Shown: piece after piece, positions 32,185-42,376 of the stretch | Layout: each line of letters opens with the position of its first letter | Position numbering within the stretch: position 1 is the first letter of the stretch | Virus genome (UHGV): UHGV-0211472 | Source of the DNA: a virus | DNA: 64,000 bases | Strand: one strand, 5' to 3' | Made by a program: the position numbers and the translations under genes | The notes under the pieces: generated by a model | Databases searched by the model: none | Seen by the model: only the letters and a program-made list of their open reading frames with translations | What the model was told of the DNA's origin: nothing

Positions 32185-32388
32185 TTAGTAGAACGAACGG
32201 ATTTCATCCCACACTTGTTCCTGTTCTTTCCTATAAAAAGAAAGTTGGGTCTTGAACATCTCCACTGATGATTCAAAGTTTTTAGATTGTGCAGCTTCAA
32301 CGAAACGTTCATGTCTGTTGATTTTGCACCGTAACATTAAATACTTGGCTTCAAGTCTCCGAAGAGCTTGTCTTTTCTCAAGATTCAC
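32185..32388 (-). CDS. Hypothetical protein
   Basis: 67 aa ORF. Confidence 0.3.
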   Translation of the reverse strand: MNLEKRQALRRLEAKYLMLRCKINRHERFVEAAQSKNFESSVEMFKTQLSFYRKEQEQVWDEIRSFY

Positions 32389-32803
32389 TTTTCAGATACT
32401 CTGACCAGTCACCAGATTCAACCAGAACATCTTGTTCTTCGTCAATATGGTAGATATAGCATTCAACAATTTCACCTGAATCCATCTTGACGTTGACCAG
32501 AGACCTGTTGTAGAAGCTATCTTCAGGGCTATGTTTGTTGTAACCTTCCAGTCGGTCATATGGACCTTCCAGACCTGCTTTGTCAGTAGCAAACACTTCT
32601 ACACGAACAGGCTTATTGTTATTGCTGTGTGCGAGAGAGATGCTCGGGAAGTAGGAACCACCGTAACGGAACAGATCGAAGTTATCTTCAGTCCAACCTT
32701 CACCGATTGACTTAGCACCAGCTCGGTCATTAACTAAATAGTTAGCTTGACCACTTCTCAAAGACCCATAACATGCGACTAAAACTTTATTTTGTTCTGA
32801 CAT
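32378..32803 (-). CDS. Gamma-glutamyl cyclotransferase-like (AIG2/GGCT fold)
   Basis: N-terminal YGSLRSG motif and C-terminal LEGY...VECYIY pattern characteristic of AIG2/GGCT proteins. Confidence 0.5.
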   Translation of the reverse strand: MSEQNKVLVACYGSLRSGQANYLVNDRAGAKSIGEGWTEDNFDLFRYGGSYFPSISLAHSNNNKPVRVEVFATDKAGLEGPYDRLEGYNKHSPEDSFYNRSLVNVKMDSGEIVECYIYHIDEEQDVLVESGDWSEYLKSES

Positions 32804-33335
32804 TCTTGTAACCCTTATGTTGATATTGTAAGCCTTTATGAACAGCTTGCATCGAAGAGTGCGCTAGATCATTTTCTCGGCAGAATTTTCTGAGGTTAAA
32901 CACCTCAATCGTCAACCCCTCTGGAGAAACAAAACTCCAGAAATCAGCATTGCCTTCATGACCTCTATTGAGACCTGTATCAAAAGCATGTTGATTATTC
33001 TCAGCGGTTGTAACCCATTCCAAGTTGCTAGGATGGTTATTTAACTTATCACCATCTTTATGATTTACGAAGGGTTTATTCTCTGGATTATCTACCCAGA
33101 CAAGTGCTACAAGTCGGTGATAGAAATGAAGCTTCCTATCAGAGAGTTTGATACGAGCGTAACCAGCACGATTAATATTTGCTGCCATGATCAACTCTCT
33201 ATCTTTCCTATGACGTGTTCTTGTCTTTGGATTGATATGCCAACGATAGTTACTACGAATATGACCTTCCTCAGAGATAGAGTATTGCCCCTCGTAACCA
33301 GTAATTTCTTTCCACTCCATTGAATAACCCTCCAT
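32787..33335 (-). CDS. HNH homing endonuclease (NUMOD4 + HNH)
   Basis: N-terminal WKEITGYEGQYSIS (NUMOD4-like) followed by HNH core NHKDGDKLNNHPSNLEW. Confidence 0.6.
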   Translation of the reverse strand: MEGYSMEWKEITGYEGQYSISEEGHIRSNYRWHINPKTRTRHRKDRELIMAANINRAGYARIKLSDRKLHFYHRLVALVWVDNPENKPFVNHKDGDKLNNHPSNLEWVTTAENNQHAFDTGLNRGHEGNADFWSFVSPEGLTIEVFNLRKFCRENDLAHSSMQAVHKGLQYQHKGYKNVRTK

Positions 33336-33483
33336 AAATTTAAACTATTTCTAGTTCATTACATCTTGGCCAGACTTAGAACCATAAGTTGCTACGTAAA
33401 TTACTTCTGACATTATCTATACCTTTGTTGGTTTGTTTAGTTTATCCGAACTAGCCTCCTCTTTTCGAAGAGGCTAAAGCAGA

Positions 33484-39397: not shown

Positions 39398-40204
39398 TTA
39401 TGCTACCTGAAGGAGTTTGATCTGCTGGTCAGCTTCTTTAACGTTGTTCCCGTTAATGATTTCATGAAGCTTCTCAATCGGAAGGCGAGAGTGCAATGCC
39501 ATCAGAGTGGACATGTCACACTGCTGAACAACCTTGTCAACCTGATCGTAAACAAACTTACGATTTTCACGATCACTAATCCAGAAGTTGGACAGCGAAC
39601 GGTATTCAATACCATAGTCTTTATAACGGATTGCAGATGCTTTACCATAGAGTTCTTTACGGCGAGTATCTTTGTCCATAATTACTGCTGGAAGAGACAG
39701 GAAGTAGTCACACAGCACACCCAGCATCATCTGAGTTTGCAGAGTGATATCCAAAGCACCAACTACGCCAAGATGTACGTGACCACCGGCAGTACGAAGC
39801 CCTTTGTTCTGAGAAGTCGGGGATGGATTCTTCTGACCAGTGAAAGCGTTGAAATCAGGAGTACACCCGAAGATGAACGCTGATTCATTGAAAGTCTTCA
39901 TCTCTTCTTCAGTGAAGATGTGAGAGCTAACACCCGGAGCTGTTTCCATGTCAAGTTTGTTCAGGACACTGTTGGTGAGATCAATACCACGTTGCATGTT
40001 GTCGTTAAACGCTTCAAAGCTGCTCTGTGGGTCAATATCAAACTCAGCCAGTACGTTGTCCTCTTGAAGACGAACATCCTTAGCCAGAGTGATCTTATCG
40101 TCCTTAGAACAACCTAACAGACCAGCTACCGAGGTAATGATACCATTACTGGTGCGAACGAACATCTCGGGATCGCTCCCAATAAGGAATTTGCGCTTAG
40201 TCAT
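39398..40204 (-). CDS. Hypothetical protein (possible second ligase-like enzyme)
   Basis: 268 aa; IGSDPEMF and GGHVHLGV motifs hint at a metal-dependent enzyme. Confidence 0.4.
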   Translation of the reverse strand: MTKRKFLIGSDPEMFVRTSNGIITSVAGLLGCSKDDKITLAKDVRLQEDNVLAEFDIDPQSSFEAFNDNMQRGIDLTNSVLNKLDMETAPGVSSHIFTEEEMKTFNESAFIFGCTPDFNAFTGQKNPSPTSQNKGLRTAGGHVHLGVVGALDITLQTQMMLGVLCDYFLSLPAVIMDKDTRRKELYGKASAIRYKDYGIEYRSLSNFWISDRENRKFVYDQVDKVVQQCDMSTLMALHSRLPIEKLHEIINGNNVKEADQQIKLLQVA

Positions 40205-41168
40205 TGTAATACTCCACTAGTTCAGAAAAGAGAGATGAGATTGTGTTACCAACTTCTTCAAGAGTAAGACCAGAACTTGGGCCAGTACGCTGAATCAGTC
40301 GGGCTGTAAAGTTTTGTACTGTAATGCTTTCCAACTTATTGTCTATTGTTTCACGTTTGTGACCATGACAGTTGGACCAGAGTCTTAACCACCCTGACAT
40401 TGTTTCATACTCGTCTGGGTCTTGATCTTTATCAAGAGCAAATCCTCGTAAGGCCTCTGGGTTATGGTTACGAACATAACCATTCTCATTGTAACCAACA
40501 CCGAAGGGGTTTTGAACCCATACTTGCTTCGTGTACTCATCAGAGTCTACAACCAAAGGAAGGAATGCTGCTGCTGACATACCATTTTCGATAACAATGG
40601 CTGTGTTCTCACCACTCCCATTGGAGGTTCCTCGTTGAGACCATCTACCGAAGAAGTCACGGCCCAATCCAGCTAACACTAGAGCGATGCCGATGCGTTT
40701 ACGCTTCAGCCACTCTTCCCTGTCTTCAATTCCTTCTGCTAGGAAATCCATTCCACGATACTGCCCTTCCAGAATACTACGGAAGAGCATAAGTCCTGTG
40801 AAGATCTGATCTGCTGGATGCTCACGAAGGTTGACAGCAACACTATTCGCTGAAGTGATTGTAAATACGTCACGATAGCAAGACATGGAGTTCATAATGT
40901 CTGCTGTTTCAACCAAGTTCTTTTCAATCTCAGATGCAGGGTGATTGTGAAAAGAGTGAGTCCAGTAATTCAACATCTCCAATTGCAAGTTAATACCACG
41001 GTTGAAGCGTCTATAACGCCCATCTTCCGTGATAACTTCGCCATCAATATCATTTACGCATTGGCCTTGCATGTAGTTGTGGACACCGAAGCACCCACGA
41101 CCTAAGAACTTCTGTTCCCCTAAATCCTGTTGAAGATTCAGAGGTACGATCGTTGTGGAGATTGACAT
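40197..41168 (-). CDS. Hypothetical protein
   Basis: 323 aa ORF, overlapping operon arrangement. Confidence 0.4.
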   Translation of the reverse strand: MSISTTIVPLNLQQDLGEQKFLGRGCFGVHNYMQGQCVNDIDGEVITEDGRYRRFNRGINLQLEMLNYWTHSFHNHPASEIEKNLVETADIMNSMSCYRDVFTITSANSVAVNLREHPADQIFTGLMLFRSILEGQYRGMDFLAEGIEDREEWLKRKRIGIALVLAGLGRDFFGRWSQRGTSNGSGENTAIVIENGMSAAAFLPLVVDSDEYTKQVWVQNPFGVGYNENGYVRNHNPEALRGFALDKDQDPDEYETMSGWLRLWSNCHGHKRETIDNKLESITVQNFTARLIQRTGPSSGLTLEEVGNTISSLFSELVEYYND

Positions 41169-41170
41169 AA

Positions 41171-42376
41171 CTAACCTTTTATTTTCCTAAAAAATAATCC
41201 GCTCATAACACCATCCCATTCAGAAGATGGAACCACTGAATACTCCGAACTTCGGTCCAGAGTTCCACTACTAAATCGCTGAACAATGTTATAGATGTTG
41301 AACATATCTTTAGTCTCAATACGATTACCGTAGATTAACTTTTCAGCTGTTCTTTCATTTTTAGACACGCGACGGGTAAAGTTAACCAAAAGGTTATCAC
41401 CTTTAAGTATCTCTGACCCATCTTTTACTAGATCGGGATGCATCACTGGCAAGAACATTGAGTTGTTCACTCGTAATTCTGCTGTTTCATCATTCTCATA
41501 ATGAATCCACTTAAAATCTTCATCACGAAAGTGACCGCATCCATCTCTGTATGACTGTTGACGCCAAGGCACTTGAAATGCTTCAGCGTATTTATCAGCC
41601 ATACCAACTGTAAATAGCGACGCTGGGAAGATACAAGCATCCCAATCATTACCAACCAGAGTTGCTTTCGTTTCACCCAAGAGGTTAGTGTAAGTGCTAA
41701 CCATTCGTGAGTAAACATAAGCCTGAAGGATTGTCCAGCCTTCAACCAACCATTTATGGAGGAAGGTTTCAACTTGACTCTCTTCATCTTCACAATAGAA
41801 GGTTCGATCTAACATCAAATAGAACAGACAGCGATCAGCAGGAACATTTTCAGTTGCTACACCCATAAAACCTTTCTCGTGCCAGCGTAAACAGGAGGGA
41901 CGATCTTTGTCCACAAATGCTTCCATAGCTTCCAGTACAGCACGAGGTGTGGTTCGATGCTCAGGGTTTTTGTCATTCCAACGTTCAATGTTGTTTTTAA
42001 GCTCGCCTTCGTAATCAATAGCACCCCAACCCAAAGCTGCGGATACAGGTTTTTCATCACGCCAACGTATAAAACCTAACATCTTCATGTGAGTTCCGGA
42101 GTTCCAGATATGCTTAATTTTACACATATCCATTTCTTTACTTAACAGGAACTCTTCCCCATCAGAACTACGAACGTTATCTTTTTCATGCCACACTCGA
42201 ACGTGCATATTCCACCCATGAGTTGCCTCATACATGTTAAGGTCGAAGTAGTCACCATCTTCGTCATCGTTTTCATCAACGCCACCGTTATAGTTGCGAA
42301 GCTGAAGGAACCCATAACAAGGAGGGTTGACCGTTAAAACATTACCTTCAGTATCTTCTAATGTTACTGGAAACAT
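41171..42376 (-). CDS. Hypothetical protein
   Basis: 401 aa ORF. Confidence 0.4.
   Translation of the reverse strand: MFPVTLEDTEGNVLTVNPPCYGFLQLRNYNGGVDENDDEDGDYFDLNMYEATHGWNMHVRVWHEKDNVRSSDGEEFLLSKEMDMCKIKHIWNSGTHMKMLGFIRWRDEKPVSAALGWGAIDYEGELKNNIERWNDKNPEHRTTPRAVLEAMEAFVDKDRPSCLRWHEKGFMGVATENVPADRCLFYLMLDRTFYCEDEESQVETFLHKWLVEGWTILQAYVYSRMVSTYTNLLGETKATLVGNDWDACIFPASLFTVGMADKYAEAFQVPWRQQSYRDGCGHFRDEDFKWIHYENDETAELRVNNSMFLPVMHPDLVKDGSEILKGDNLLVNFTRRVSKNERTAEKLIYGNRIETKDMFNIYNIVQRFSSGTLDRSSEYSVVPSSEWDGVMSGLFFRKIKG

What the first reader, a model, noticed from the sequence alone, without database searches (positions are those of the whole stretch)
32378..42376. ATP-grasp / amidotransferase / amidoligase / GGCT-like gene cluster: candidate phage small-molecule or macromolecule modification pathway
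A co-directional run of minus-strand genes with overlapping stops and starts encodes an AIG2/GGCT-like protein (32378..32803), an ATP-grasp ligase (33921..35117), the amidotransferase-zinc-ribbon fusion (35561..37591), a GS-like amidoligase with GIELELEG (37671..38774), a second possible ligase (39398..40204) and three larger unknown proteins (38771..39388, 40197..41168, 41171..42376). Together these are the parts needed to make and trim amide or gamma-glutamyl linkages. In a phage the target could be a nucleotide or DNA base, a peptide tag on a protein, or a cell-wall precursor. The product is not predictable from sequence.
Basis: inference. Interest (0 to 1): 0.85.

Follow-up and report, generated by a model that had tools for sequence, protein, structure and literature searches.

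The report
Known phage amidoligase (gamma-glutamyl) gene cassette
The region is the already described phiEco32-type cassette of amide-bond-forming and gamma-glutamyl-cleaving enzymes, found in many phage families; what it acts on has never been tested, so it is real and intact but not a new discovery.

Summary
All eight ORFs sit at the stated coordinates on the minus strand, tightly packed, and profile searches support every proposed domain.

The window is a Kuravirus (phiEco32-like E. coli podophage). The region is phiEco32 genes gp77-gp88, about 94% identical to published phages. Iyer et al. 2009 and Hardies et al. 2013 already described this cassette as a hypothetical "peptidoglycan modification" module, and Pfam PF14395 is named after it. 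I found no experimental test of its function.

New details:
- The amidotransferase starts at ATT directly before its catalytic Cys. In 54 related viral loci, 10 use ATT and 1 uses CTG at this position. Several RefSeq records therefore truncate the gene.
- The block COOH-NH2 ligase / gp85 / Amidoligase_2 / amidotransferase / ATP-grasp is conserved in most of the 54 loci.
- The gamma-glutamyl cyclotransferase is replaced in other lineages by a PuuD-like Peptidase_C26. The two rarely co-occur, so cleaving a gamma-glutamyl bond appears to be an integral step.
- gp88 has a confidently predicted fold with no match among solved structures. It seems paralogous to gp87.

Most likely the cassette is a cytoplasmic pathway that builds and amidates a compound carrying a transient gamma-glutamyl group. 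The acceptor is unknown.

The parts
41171..42376 (-). gp88 homologue, 401 aa. Unknown function. Invariant motifs include MFPV..PPCYGF, IWNSGTH, ADRCLFYLM, WRQ..Y..GH.RD and NNSMF.
40197..41168 (-). gp87 homologue, 323 aa. Unknown function and a probable distant paralogue of gp88, sharing an N-terminal C-[FY]-G motif and a PAD[RQ]..LM..R motif.
   Evidence: 13 clusters only. The hhalign match to gp88 is weak (E 0.07 over 103 columns). Its GAP52 homologue gp029 is a structural match of the gp88 model. RIO-1_7 aligns weakly and shares GCFG.
39398..40204 (-). gp86 homologue: GCS2/GS-like carboxylate-amine ligase (Pfam 'phage phiEco32-like COOH.NH2 ligase type 2').
   Evidence: PF14395 at 34.7 bits against a cut-off of 25. 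phrog_3815 at 2e-118. Present in 49 of 54 related loci.
38771..39388 (-). gp85 homologue, 205 aa, GTG start. A core partner with no known enzyme domain. Its conserved loop carries ESPDVGY and the motif P.RQ.[RK].G.
37671..38774 (-). gp84 homologue: GS-like Amidoligase_2 with the E-x-E-x-E metal motif (GIELELEG).
   Evidence: PF12224 at 33.5 bits against 22. Residues E31/E33/E35, DGSLR, R91-S-T-H-x-H and E186-x-R188 are invariant across five phage lineages.
37592..37670 (-). Intergenic leader of the amidotransferase: two hairpins, then the Shine-Dalgarno-like AGGTGGA 7 nt before ATT.
   Evidence: Sequence. The second hairpin, Shine-Dalgarno sequence and ATT-TGT stretch (about 47 nt) is identical in SU7, although the 561-nt region is only about 76% identical overall. 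The first hairpin is kept through compensatory changes. The fold is not better than shuffled sequence (z -1.1). No Rfam family matches.
35561..37591 (-). gp83 homologue: class II (Ntn) glutamine amidotransferase, 676 aa, with an ATT start and Cys2. After a Ser/Tyr-rich linker it has a beta-rich middle domain and repeated CxxC...C zinc-ribbon modules. No known synthase domain is present.
   Evidence: GATase_6 at 1.5e-14. Translation. Relatives have ATG at the aligned position. The motifs RGxHSxG, GHxRxATxG, HNG and DSEN are conserved. The C-terminal 433 aa has no Pfam hit.
35325..35558 (-). gp82 homologue, 77 aa, basic. Conserved in this position in Grimontviridae. Function unknown.
   Evidence: 36-39% identical to the GAP52 and SE131 ORFs in the same slot. 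Present in 12 loci.
35120..35344 (-). gp81 homologue, 74 aa. Poorly conserved small protein.
   Evidence: 15-18% identity outside Gordonclarkvirinae.
33921..35117 (-). gp80 homologue: RimK/MptN-like ATP-grasp ligase, with an acidic linker and an 82-aa C-terminal domain.
   Evidence: phrog_2599 at 1e-182 and phrog_20552 for the C-terminal domain. MptN 3e-8 and RimK family 9e-7. PDB sequence hits are D-Ala-D-Ala ligase and alpha-L-glutamate ligases. Present in 49 of 54 loci.
33484..33914 (-). gp79 (33666-33914) and gp78 (33484-33669) homologues. These small proteins lie between the enzymes and are probably not part of the enzymology. The Paul record names gp79 a transcription regulator.
   Evidence: Annotation of the Paul record. 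Alignments.
32378..32803 (-). gp77 homologue: AIG2/GGACT-type gamma-glutamyl(amine) cyclotransferase. It has the YGSL motif and the LEGY glutamate.
   Evidence: PF06094 at 58.2 bits against 22.8. phrog_2520 at 3e-42. GGCT is present in 23 of 54 loci, and it rarely co-occurs with Peptidase_C26.

Best explanation
This is the phiEco32-type amidoligase cassette (gp77-gp88) of a Kuravirus phage. It is an operon-like run of soluble cytoplasmic proteins directly upstream of the primase/helicase gene.

Shown here:
- Three ATP-dependent carboxylate-amine ligases: a RimK/MptN-like ATP-grasp (gp80), a GS-like Amidoligase_2 (gp84) and a GCS2-like COOH-NH2 ligase (gp86).
- A class II glutamine amidotransferase (gp83). 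Its catalytic Cys and glutamine-binding residues are intact, but it has no fused synthase domain.
- A gamma-glutamyl(amine) cyclotransferase (gp77).
- A partner protein, gp85, which is almost always present.
- A lineage-specific pair, gp87 and gp88, with a fold not seen in solved structures.

Inferred mechanism:
- One GS-like ligase activates a glutamate gamma-carboxyl (or another carboxylate) as an acyl phosphate and joins it to an amine.
- The other ligases extend the product by further amide bonds.
- gp83 hydrolyses glutamine and passes ammonia to its conserved neighbour gp84 to amidate a carboxylate.
- The gamma-glutamyl group serves as a transient handle. At the end gp77 removes it as 5-oxoproline. 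In other phage lineages a PuuD-like gamma-glutamyl hydrolase does this step instead.

The acceptor, and therefore the benefit to the phage, remains unknown. A small cytoplasmic amine or peptide-like metabolite is the reading that fits best.
For: Identity:
- The region is about 94% identical to 66 Kuravirus genomes over at least 80% of its length.
- It matches phiEco32 gp77-gp88 gene for gene.

Domains.

Catalytic residues:
- Amidotransferase: Cys2, RGxHSxG, GHSRHATKG, HNG and DSEN.
- Amidoligase: invariant ExExE, DGSLR, STHxH and ExR.

Functional unit:
- The same gene order is found in Gordonclarkvirinae, Grimontviridae and the 68.5-kb Kuravirus LAMP.
- Among 54 viral loci found with the amidoligase, the amidotransferase is present in 54, the ATP-grasp in 49 and the COOH-NH2 ligase in 49.
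- gp85-like ORFs occupy the slot between the two GS-like ligases in about 42 of these loci.
- The amidoligase and amidotransferase genes are adjacent in almost all loci.

Gamma-glutamyl cleavage as an integral step:
- 20 loci have GGCT only, 23 have Peptidase_C26 only, 3 have both and 8 have neither. Several of the last group are cut by contig ends.
- Fisher exact test gives p = 9e-6. This is not corrected for the relatedness of the loci.
- A GS-like ligase paired with a Peptidase_C26 is the enzyme pairing of the E. coli PuuA/PuuD putrescine gamma-glutamylation pathway (established knowledge).

Other points:
- No protein in the cassette has a transmembrane-like segment.
- Directed evolution of a LUZ24-like phage selected missense changes in its amidoligase and amidotransferase in two lines (PMC11450229).
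Against: - No substrate, product or phenotype has been measured for any member of this cassette (literature searches).
- The order of reactions and the ammonia transfer from gp83 to gp84 are inferred only from gene adjacency and domain chemistry.
- gp83 could instead act as an EgtC-like gamma-glutamyl hydrolase (weak EgtC hit, E 3e-4).
- The GGCT/C26 exclusivity is counted over related contigs, not over independent events.
- The roles of gp85, gp87 and gp88 are unknown. gp85's most conserved segment is modelled with low confidence.
- The ATP-grasp is below the curated cut-offs of Pfam and NCBIfam.
Confidence: 0.55

Rival explanations
1. Peptidoglycan-precursor modification (the hypothesis of Iyer 2009 and Hardies 2013). 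The ligases make unusual peptide links on cytoplasmic murein precursors. The amidotransferase and GGCT amidate or trim them. The altered cell wall blocks superinfection or tunes lysis.
For: - This is the reading repeated in the literature.
- The enzyme types match the bond types in stem peptides: gamma-linked Glu, a D-Ala-D-Ala-ligase-like ATP-grasp, and amidation of carboxylates as in MurT/GatD (established knowledge).
- All proteins are cytoplasmic, where the precursors are made.
Against: - It has never been tested.
- No Mur-ligase, UDP-sugar-binding, lipid II or secretion-related domain was found in any of the proteins.
- The ATP-grasp scores better against MptN/RimK glutamate ligases than against D-Ala-D-Ala ligase.
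- The cassette sits in the replication module of strictly virulent phages.
- An amidoligase plus amidotransferase pair is reported in viruses assigned to Poseidoniales archaea, which lack murein. That host assignment is itself a prediction.
Confidence: 0.2
2. Protein or peptide tagging. The ligases add glutamate or a short peptide to a protein, as RimK does on ribosomal protein S6 or PafA does in pupylation. The target could be gp85 or a host protein. The amidotransferase would act as a deamidase or peptidase, and GGCT would clear gamma-glutamyl-lysine remnants.
For: - The ATP-grasp is closest to the RimK family.
- GS-like ligases include the Pup ligase (established knowledge).
- GGACT enzymes act on gamma-glutamyl-epsilon-lysine (established knowledge).
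- gp85 is almost always present, has no known enzyme domain, and carries a very conserved basic loop (P.RQ.[RK].G) that is modelled as flexible.
- Amidoligases of GAP52, SE131 and RIO-1 end in acidic tails that finish with an aromatic residue.
Against: - No residue or terminus of any candidate target is conserved as an obvious attachment site. The C-termini of the small proteins vary.
- The amidotransferase keeps the Arg and Asp that bind the free alpha-carboxylate and alpha-amino groups of glutamine. This fits a free amino-acid moiety, not a protein side chain.
Confidence: 0.13
3. Nucleotide or DNA modification. The cassette builds an amino-acid-like group on a base, which would explain why Gordonclarkvirinae resist restriction-modification systems.
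For: - The BASEL study reports these phages as remarkably resistant to restriction-modification systems without any known modification pathway (PMC11990801).
- The window has 28 EcoRV, 8 EcoKI and 97 EcoP1 sites.
- The cassette is always beside replication genes.
- Amidoligase and amidotransferase genes co-occur with thymidine-hypermodification genes in some viral contigs (PMC8989533).
Against: - No 5-hmdU kinase, aGPT-Pplase or dUMP hydroxymethylase was detected. The phage has ThyX.
- gp88 does not have a DNA-glycosylase-like fold.
- CCWGG (0 against 84 expected), PstI (0 against 17), EcoRI, BamHI and GATC sites are strongly depleted. That is expected for DNA that remains exposed to restriction.
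- DNA of the cassette-bearing LUZ24-like phage U17 was cut by 11 of 16 enzymes.
Confidence: 0.07

Closest known systems
phiEco32 gp77-gp88 cassette, the 'putative peptidoglycan modification module' (Iyer, Abhiman, Burroughs, Aravind 2009 Mol Biosyst 5:1636; Hardies et al. 2013 J Virol 87:9189)
   Same: The genes, their order and their position upstream of primase/helicase are the same, at about 94-97% nucleotide identity. The same five enzyme families are present.
   Different: This phage carries an extra HNH homing endonuclease between gp77 and gp78, and a group I intron in the neighbouring primase/helicase gene. Neither changes the cassette.
E. coli Puu pathway (PuuA gamma-glutamyl-putrescine synthetase and PuuD gamma-glutamyl-GABA hydrolase) and related Pau or GlnA-like polyamine gamma-glutamylation systems
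   Same: A GS-fold ATP-dependent ligase is paired with an enzyme that later cleaves the gamma-glutamyl amide. 26 of 54 related phage loci carry a PuuD-family Peptidase_C26.
   Different: The phage ligases are Amidoligase_2 and COOH-NH2 ligase type 2, not PuuA orthologues. This window uses a cyclotransferase instead of the hydrolase. The phage set adds an ATP-grasp, a class II amidotransferase and gp85. No oxidase or dehydrogenase steps are present.
Butirosin side-chain biosynthesis (BtrJ ATP-grasp and BtrG gamma-glutamyl cyclotransferase) and ergothioneine biosynthesis (EgtA ligase and EgtC class II amidotransferase-like hydrolase)
   Same: Gamma-glutamylation is used as a transient handle and removed by a GGCT-fold or Ntn-fold enzyme. 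The enzyme folds are the same (established knowledge; weak EgtC hit).
   Different: There is no acyl carrier protein, PLP enzyme, sulfoxide synthase or methyltransferase here. Homology is at the superfamily level only.
MurT/GatD and class II amidotransferases such as asparagine synthetase, GlmS and PurF
   Same: Glutamine is hydrolysed at an N-terminal Cys and the ammonia is used to amidate an ATP-activated carboxylate. Cys1, Arg, Asn-Gly and Asp motifs are conserved.
   Different: No synthase domain is fused to gp83, and its C-terminal part is made of zinc ribbons. The presumed acceptor enzyme is a separate GS-like protein.

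Membership tests
phiEco32-type amidoligase cassette | One co-directional cluster with GGCT, ATP-grasp, class II amidotransferase, Amidoligase_2 and COOH-NH2 ligase type 2 | tested here: met
   Pfam and PHROG assignments. Gene junctions.
phiEco32-type amidoligase cassette | Gene-for-gene synteny with phiEco32 gp77-gp88, next to the primase/helicase gene | tested here: met
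   The same order holds in SU7, GAP52, SE131 and LAMP.
phiEco32-type amidoligase cassette | Modifies peptidoglycan, which is the function the name implies | not testable with these tools
   I found no experimental paper. Muropeptide analysis is needed.
Class II (Ntn) glutamine amidotransferase | Catalytic Cys directly after the initiator residue | tested here: met
   The sequence reads TAG AAA ATT TGT with a Shine-Dalgarno-like site upstream. Relatives have ATG TGT at the aligned position.
Class II (Ntn) glutamine amidotransferase | Glutamine-binding Arg, Asn-Gly oxyanion hole and Asp | tested here: met
   GHSRHATKG, HNG and DSEN align to PurF and are invariant in five lineages.
Class II (Ntn) glutamine amidotransferase | Fused acceptor or synthase domain, as in GlmS, PurF and AsnB | tested here: not met
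   The C-terminal 433 aa has no Pfam family. It contains only zinc-ribbon-like CxxC repeats.
RimK-family ATP-grasp glutamate ligase | Profile score above the curated cut-off | tested here: not met
   RimK 16.4 bits against 21. Dala_Dala_lig_C 17.2 against 24. TIGR00768 28.5 against 143 and MptN 33 against 350. The protein is ATP-grasp by fold signature and PHROG but not a member of RimK proper.
Amidoligase_2 (PF12224) | Score above the gathering threshold, with the acidic metal motif | tested here: met
   33.5 bits against 22. ExExE is invariant.
COOH-NH2 ligase type 2 (PF14395) | Score above the gathering threshold | tested here: met
   34.7 bits against 25.
GGACT/AIG2-like gamma-glutamyl cyclotransferase (PF06094) | Score above the gathering threshold, full-length match | tested here: met
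   58.2 bits against 22.8, covering profile positions 1-119 of 120.
Thymidine hypermodification pathway (5-HMUDK plus aGPT-Pplase) | 5-hmdU DNA kinase, aGPT-Pplase pair and dUMP hydroxymethylase | tested here: not met
   None of these was found among the cassette proteins or the ten replication-module proteins scanned. ThyX is present instead. gp88 has no glycosylase-like fold. The BASEL paper also reports no known modification pathway. Not every ORF in the window was scanned.
Puu-type gamma-glutamylation pathway | PuuD-family Peptidase_C26 hydrolase in the cluster | tested here: not met
   No C26 ORF is in this window. One is present in 26 of 54 related loci.

The most novel reading that the evidence does not exclude
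The cassette assembles a gamma-glutamyl-masked amino-acid-like group that ends up covalently attached to phage DNA or its nucleotide precursors. This would be the unknown protection behind the unusual restriction resistance of Gordonclarkvirinae. gp85 (basic conserved loop), gp87 and gp88 (new fold, invariant Cys) would act as the nucleic-acid-handling components.
Probability: 0.06. Interest if true: 0.85.

Novelty: already known. Interest (0 to 1): 0.38.

Why it matters
The cassette is carried by many phage groups. These include Kuravirus and LUZ24-like phages used in therapy work, Grimontviridae, Zobellviridae and many uncultured marine phages. Even the reduced 68.5-kb Kuravirus genome keeps it. 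Yet its substrate has been unknown since it was first noted in 2009.

Learning what it makes would reveal a common way in which virulent phages rewire host metabolism or macromolecules.

This analysis adds a concrete biochemical prediction: a gamma-glutamyl conjugate that is built and then cleaved, with gp85 as an obligatory partner. It also adds an annotation fix, the ATT start of the amidotransferase. Kuravirus phages in the BASEL collection that infect E. coli K-12 derivatives make the question experimentally approachable.

Tried and rejected
Unknown proteins:
- Sequence profiles of gp85, gp87 and gp88 against PDB sequences gave only chance-level hits.
- Pfam at E up to 10 on gp85, gp87, gp88 and on the C-terminal parts of gp83 and gp80 gave nothing meaningful.
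- The AFDB fold library was not available.
- The gp85 model is low-confidence. Its SH3/Tudor-like matches are treated as inconclusive.
- A profile search with gp88 against 1.84 billion representatives found no cellular relatives and no link to gp87.

Small proteins as possible tag substrates:
- gp78, gp81 and gp82 were examined. Their C-termini are not conserved.

Regulatory elements:
- The promoter/terminator scan and a remembered phiEco32 promoter motif gave nothing specific to the cluster.
- The leader of gp83 does not fold better than shuffled sequence and matches no Rfam family.

Literature:
- The key papers (Iyer 2009, Hardies 2013, Savalia 2008) are not held in the library. They are cited only through papers that quote them.

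Natural deletions:
- I checked whether the small-genome Kuraviruses have lost the cassette. LAMP keeps all of it.

Replication-gene context:
- phmmer with this phage's replication proteins was too insensitive to score context in distant loci. A Pfam census of neighbouring ORFs replaced it.

Full report
**What the window is.** The region 32378-42376 matches 99 phage records. Sixty-six of them cover at least 80% of it, at about 94% identity. All are phiEco32-like E. coli or Shigella podophages of the genus Kuravirus, subfamily Gordonclarkvirinae. In the original phiEco32 record the same genes are phi32_77 to phi32_88.

**Check of the observation.**
- Junctions between genes range from a 20-nt overlap to an 11-nt gap. 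The two exceptions are a 79-nt gap before the amidotransferase and a 148-nt gap next to an inserted gene.
- Pfam confirms four families above their cut-offs: GGACT/AIG2 (32378-32803), class II amidotransferase (35561-37591), Amidoligase_2 (37671-38774, containing GIELELEG) and "phage phiEco32-like COOH.NH2 ligase type 2" (39398-40204).
- The ATP-grasp (33921-35117) is below the Pfam and NCBIfam cut-offs. It is still clearly an ATP-grasp of the RimK/MptN/D-Ala-D-Ala-ligase group.
- The three "larger unknown proteins" have no Pfam or NCBIfam family.

**The amidotransferase start.**
- The ORF has no ATG, GTG or TTG in its first 113 codons.
- The frame opens TAG AAA ATT TGT, with AGGTGGA seven bases upstream.
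- In Grimontviridae relatives the aligned position reads ATG TGT.
- So translation starts at ATT, and the catalytic Cys is residue 2, as a class II (Ntn) amidotransferase requires.
- phiEco32 and LAMP annotate the full 676 codons. RefSeq records such as Paul and SU7 start downstream and lose the nucleophile.
- Across 54 related viral loci, the codon before the Cys is ATG in 41, ATT in 10 and CTG in 1. None of those 11 has a canonical start between the upstream stop and the Cys.
- These 11 fall into at least five lineages that are 40% identical or less. Some close pairs differ: ATG against ATT at 90% identity, and CTG against ATT at 99%.
- This recurrent weak start suggests selection for low synthesis of the glutaminase, or synthesis that depends on initiation factors. 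That interpretation is an inference.

**It is one functional unit.**
- The order gp88, gp87, COOH-NH2 ligase, gp85, amidoligase, amidotransferase, two small genes, ATP-grasp, GGCT, primase/helicase is kept in Suseptimavirus SU7 and in Grimontviridae GAP52 and SE131.
- The 68.5-kb Kuravirus LAMP, which has lost about 9 kb elsewhere, keeps all of it.
- A scan of viral contigs with an amidoligase alignment returned 54 loci.
- Iterated HMMs on their ORFs found the amidotransferase in 54, the ATP-grasp in 49 and the COOH-NH2 ligase in 49. They are mostly arranged as COOH-NH2 ligase, gp85, Amidoligase_2, amidotransferase, ATP-grasp.
- gp85-like proteins were found by HMM in 30 loci. About a dozen more ORFs in the same slot share its motifs: Y..T[WYF] near the N-terminus, and P.RQ.[RK].G.
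- gp87, gp88 and their Grimontviridae counterparts occur in only 12 loci.

**Gamma-glutamyl cleavage is integral.**
- A Pfam census of unassigned neighbouring ORFs in the distant loci gave Peptidase_C26 as the commonest family. This is the family of PuuD-like gamma-glutamyl hydrolases. It scored above its cut-off and usually lies directly upstream of the COOH-NH2 ligase.
- GGCT alone occurs in 20 loci, C26 alone in 23, both in 3, and neither in 8. Several of the last group are cut by contig ends.
- Fisher exact test gives p = 9e-6, not corrected for relatedness. This window has no C26.
- Two unrelated enzymes that both cleave gamma-glutamyl amide bonds therefore substitute for each other. This argues that a gamma-glutamyl conjugate is made and later cleaved in the pathway.
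- A GS-fold ligase paired with a C26 hydrolase is the logic of the E. coli PuuA/PuuD pathway. A GGCT-fold enzyme removes a protective gamma-glutamyl group in butirosin synthesis (both established knowledge).

**The unknown proteins.**
- gp88:
  - It belongs to a very small family: 21 clusters at 90% identity, and 23 representatives among 1.84 billion proteins.
  - It has many invariant residues, including Cys20, His282, Asp285 and the N-terminal MFPV.
  - In the viral structure library it matches both GAP52 proteins at the gp87 and gp88 positions, paired proteins of Aeromonas phages, and a CW02 protein.
- gp87 and gp88 together:
  - gp87 and gp88 share weak sequence similarity, and RIO-1_7 shares the C-[FY]-G motif.
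  - This suggests one phage-specific superfamily, often present as a pair.
- gp85:
  - It is the most conserved protein of the set.
  - Its most conserved, basic segment is modelled with low confidence.
  - The flanking parts look like a small SH3/Tudor-type barrel, which I treat as inconclusive.
- No cassette protein has a transmembrane-like segment.

**What is known.**
- The cassette was predicted by Iyer et al. 2009. Hardies et al. 2013 described it as a seven-gene cassette shared by RIO-1, phiEco32, 7-11, PA11, tf, LUZ24, PaP3 and CW02.
- Later genome papers call it a putative peptidoglycan modification module, thought to prevent superinfection.
- I could not read the two source papers. 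I found no experimental test.
- The only experimental hint is from directed evolution of a LUZ24-like phage. Missense changes in its amidoligase and amidotransferase were selected in two lines.

**The DNA reading.**
- The BASEL study reports that Gordonclarkvirinae are remarkably resistant to restriction-modification systems without any known modification pathway.
- Amidoligase and amidotransferase genes accompany thymidine-hypermodification genes in some contigs.
- Against this:
  - The phage encodes ThyX. None of the proteins scanned is a 5-hmdU kinase, aGPT-Pplase or hydroxymethylase.
  - The window completely avoids CCWGG (0 against 84 expected) and PstI sites, and is depleted in EcoRI, BamHI and GATC sites.
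  - DNA of the cassette-bearing LUZ24-like phage U17 is cut by 11 of 16 enzymes.
- I keep this reading as a low-probability but high-interest possibility.

**Verdict.** However, the cluster is an already described cassette in a phage about 94-97% identical to published genomes. The best-supported mechanism is a cytoplasmic, multi-step, ATP-dependent amide-forming pathway. It would use glutamine-derived ammonia and a transient gamma-glutamyl group. The acceptor is unknown.

Noticed in passing
window 30655-30911 (- strand): A group I intron (Rfam RF00028, 86 bits, E 1.7e-22) interrupts the primase/helicase gene, splitting it into 30908-32158 and 30115-30660. The roughly 257-bp insertion is absent from phage Paul. 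RIO-1 also has a group I intron in its primase/helicase.
   Followed up: yes
window 32787-33335 (- strand): A free-standing NUMOD4 plus HNH_3 homing endonuclease is inserted between the GGCT gene and the gp78 homologue, overlapping the GGCT start by 17 nt. It is absent from Paul and phiEco32. SU7 and LAMP carry other HNH genes at different places in the cassette.
   Followed up: partly
whole window 1-64000: Restriction-site counts are strongly skewed. Depleted: CCWGG 0 against 84 expected, PstI 0 against 17, EcoRI 5 against 22, BamHI 2 against 10, GATC 137 against 252. Not depleted: EcoRV (28), EcoKI (8) and EcoP1 (97). This bears on the reported restriction resistance of these phages.
   Followed up: partly
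window 37589-37591, and loci L031, L033, L039, L050, L056 (ATT) and L029 (CTG): The amidotransferase gene uses a non-canonical start codon directly before its catalytic Cys in 11 of 52 loci, spread over at least five lineages. Close relatives switch between ATG, ATT and CTG. Several RefSeq records (Paul, SU7) therefore annotate a truncated protein that lacks the nucleophile.
   Followed up: yes
window 28261-29619 (- strand): The 452-aa protein annotated as 'nucleotidyltransferase' beside the dCTP deaminase has only a weak poly(A) polymerase/CCA-adding head-domain hit (E 0.002). This suggests an RNA or tRNA 3'-end enzyme rather than a DNA-modifying one.
   Followed up: no
L004:7129-8670, L005:6945-8648, L006:8179-9444: Amidoligases of GAP52, SE131 and RIO-1 have long extra N-terminal regions. 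Their C-terminal tails are acidic and end in an aromatic residue (EEDEDDTSPEFW, EEDDDTANF, EDSSEDSTTW), which resembles the partner-binding tails of SSB and T7 replication proteins. The Kuravirus protein lacks this tail.
   Followed up: no
L022:9104-9847, L033:10474-11259, L036:7010-7852, L043:12739-13410, L044:13585-14361 and others: In the distant loci that carry Peptidase_C26, the ORF right after the ATP-grasp belongs to a conserved family of about 230-280 aa. It has no Pfam hit and an invariant KCRDF motif. A zinc-finger primase gene follows in several further loci (for example L023, L034, L035, L037).
   Followed up: partly
window 42932-42949 and 44515-44534 (- strand): Two terminator-like hairpins with T-runs lie upstream of the cassette. 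The one at 42932-42949 is just upstream of the gp89 homologue (42388-42750) and may mark the start of the transcription unit.
   Followed up: no
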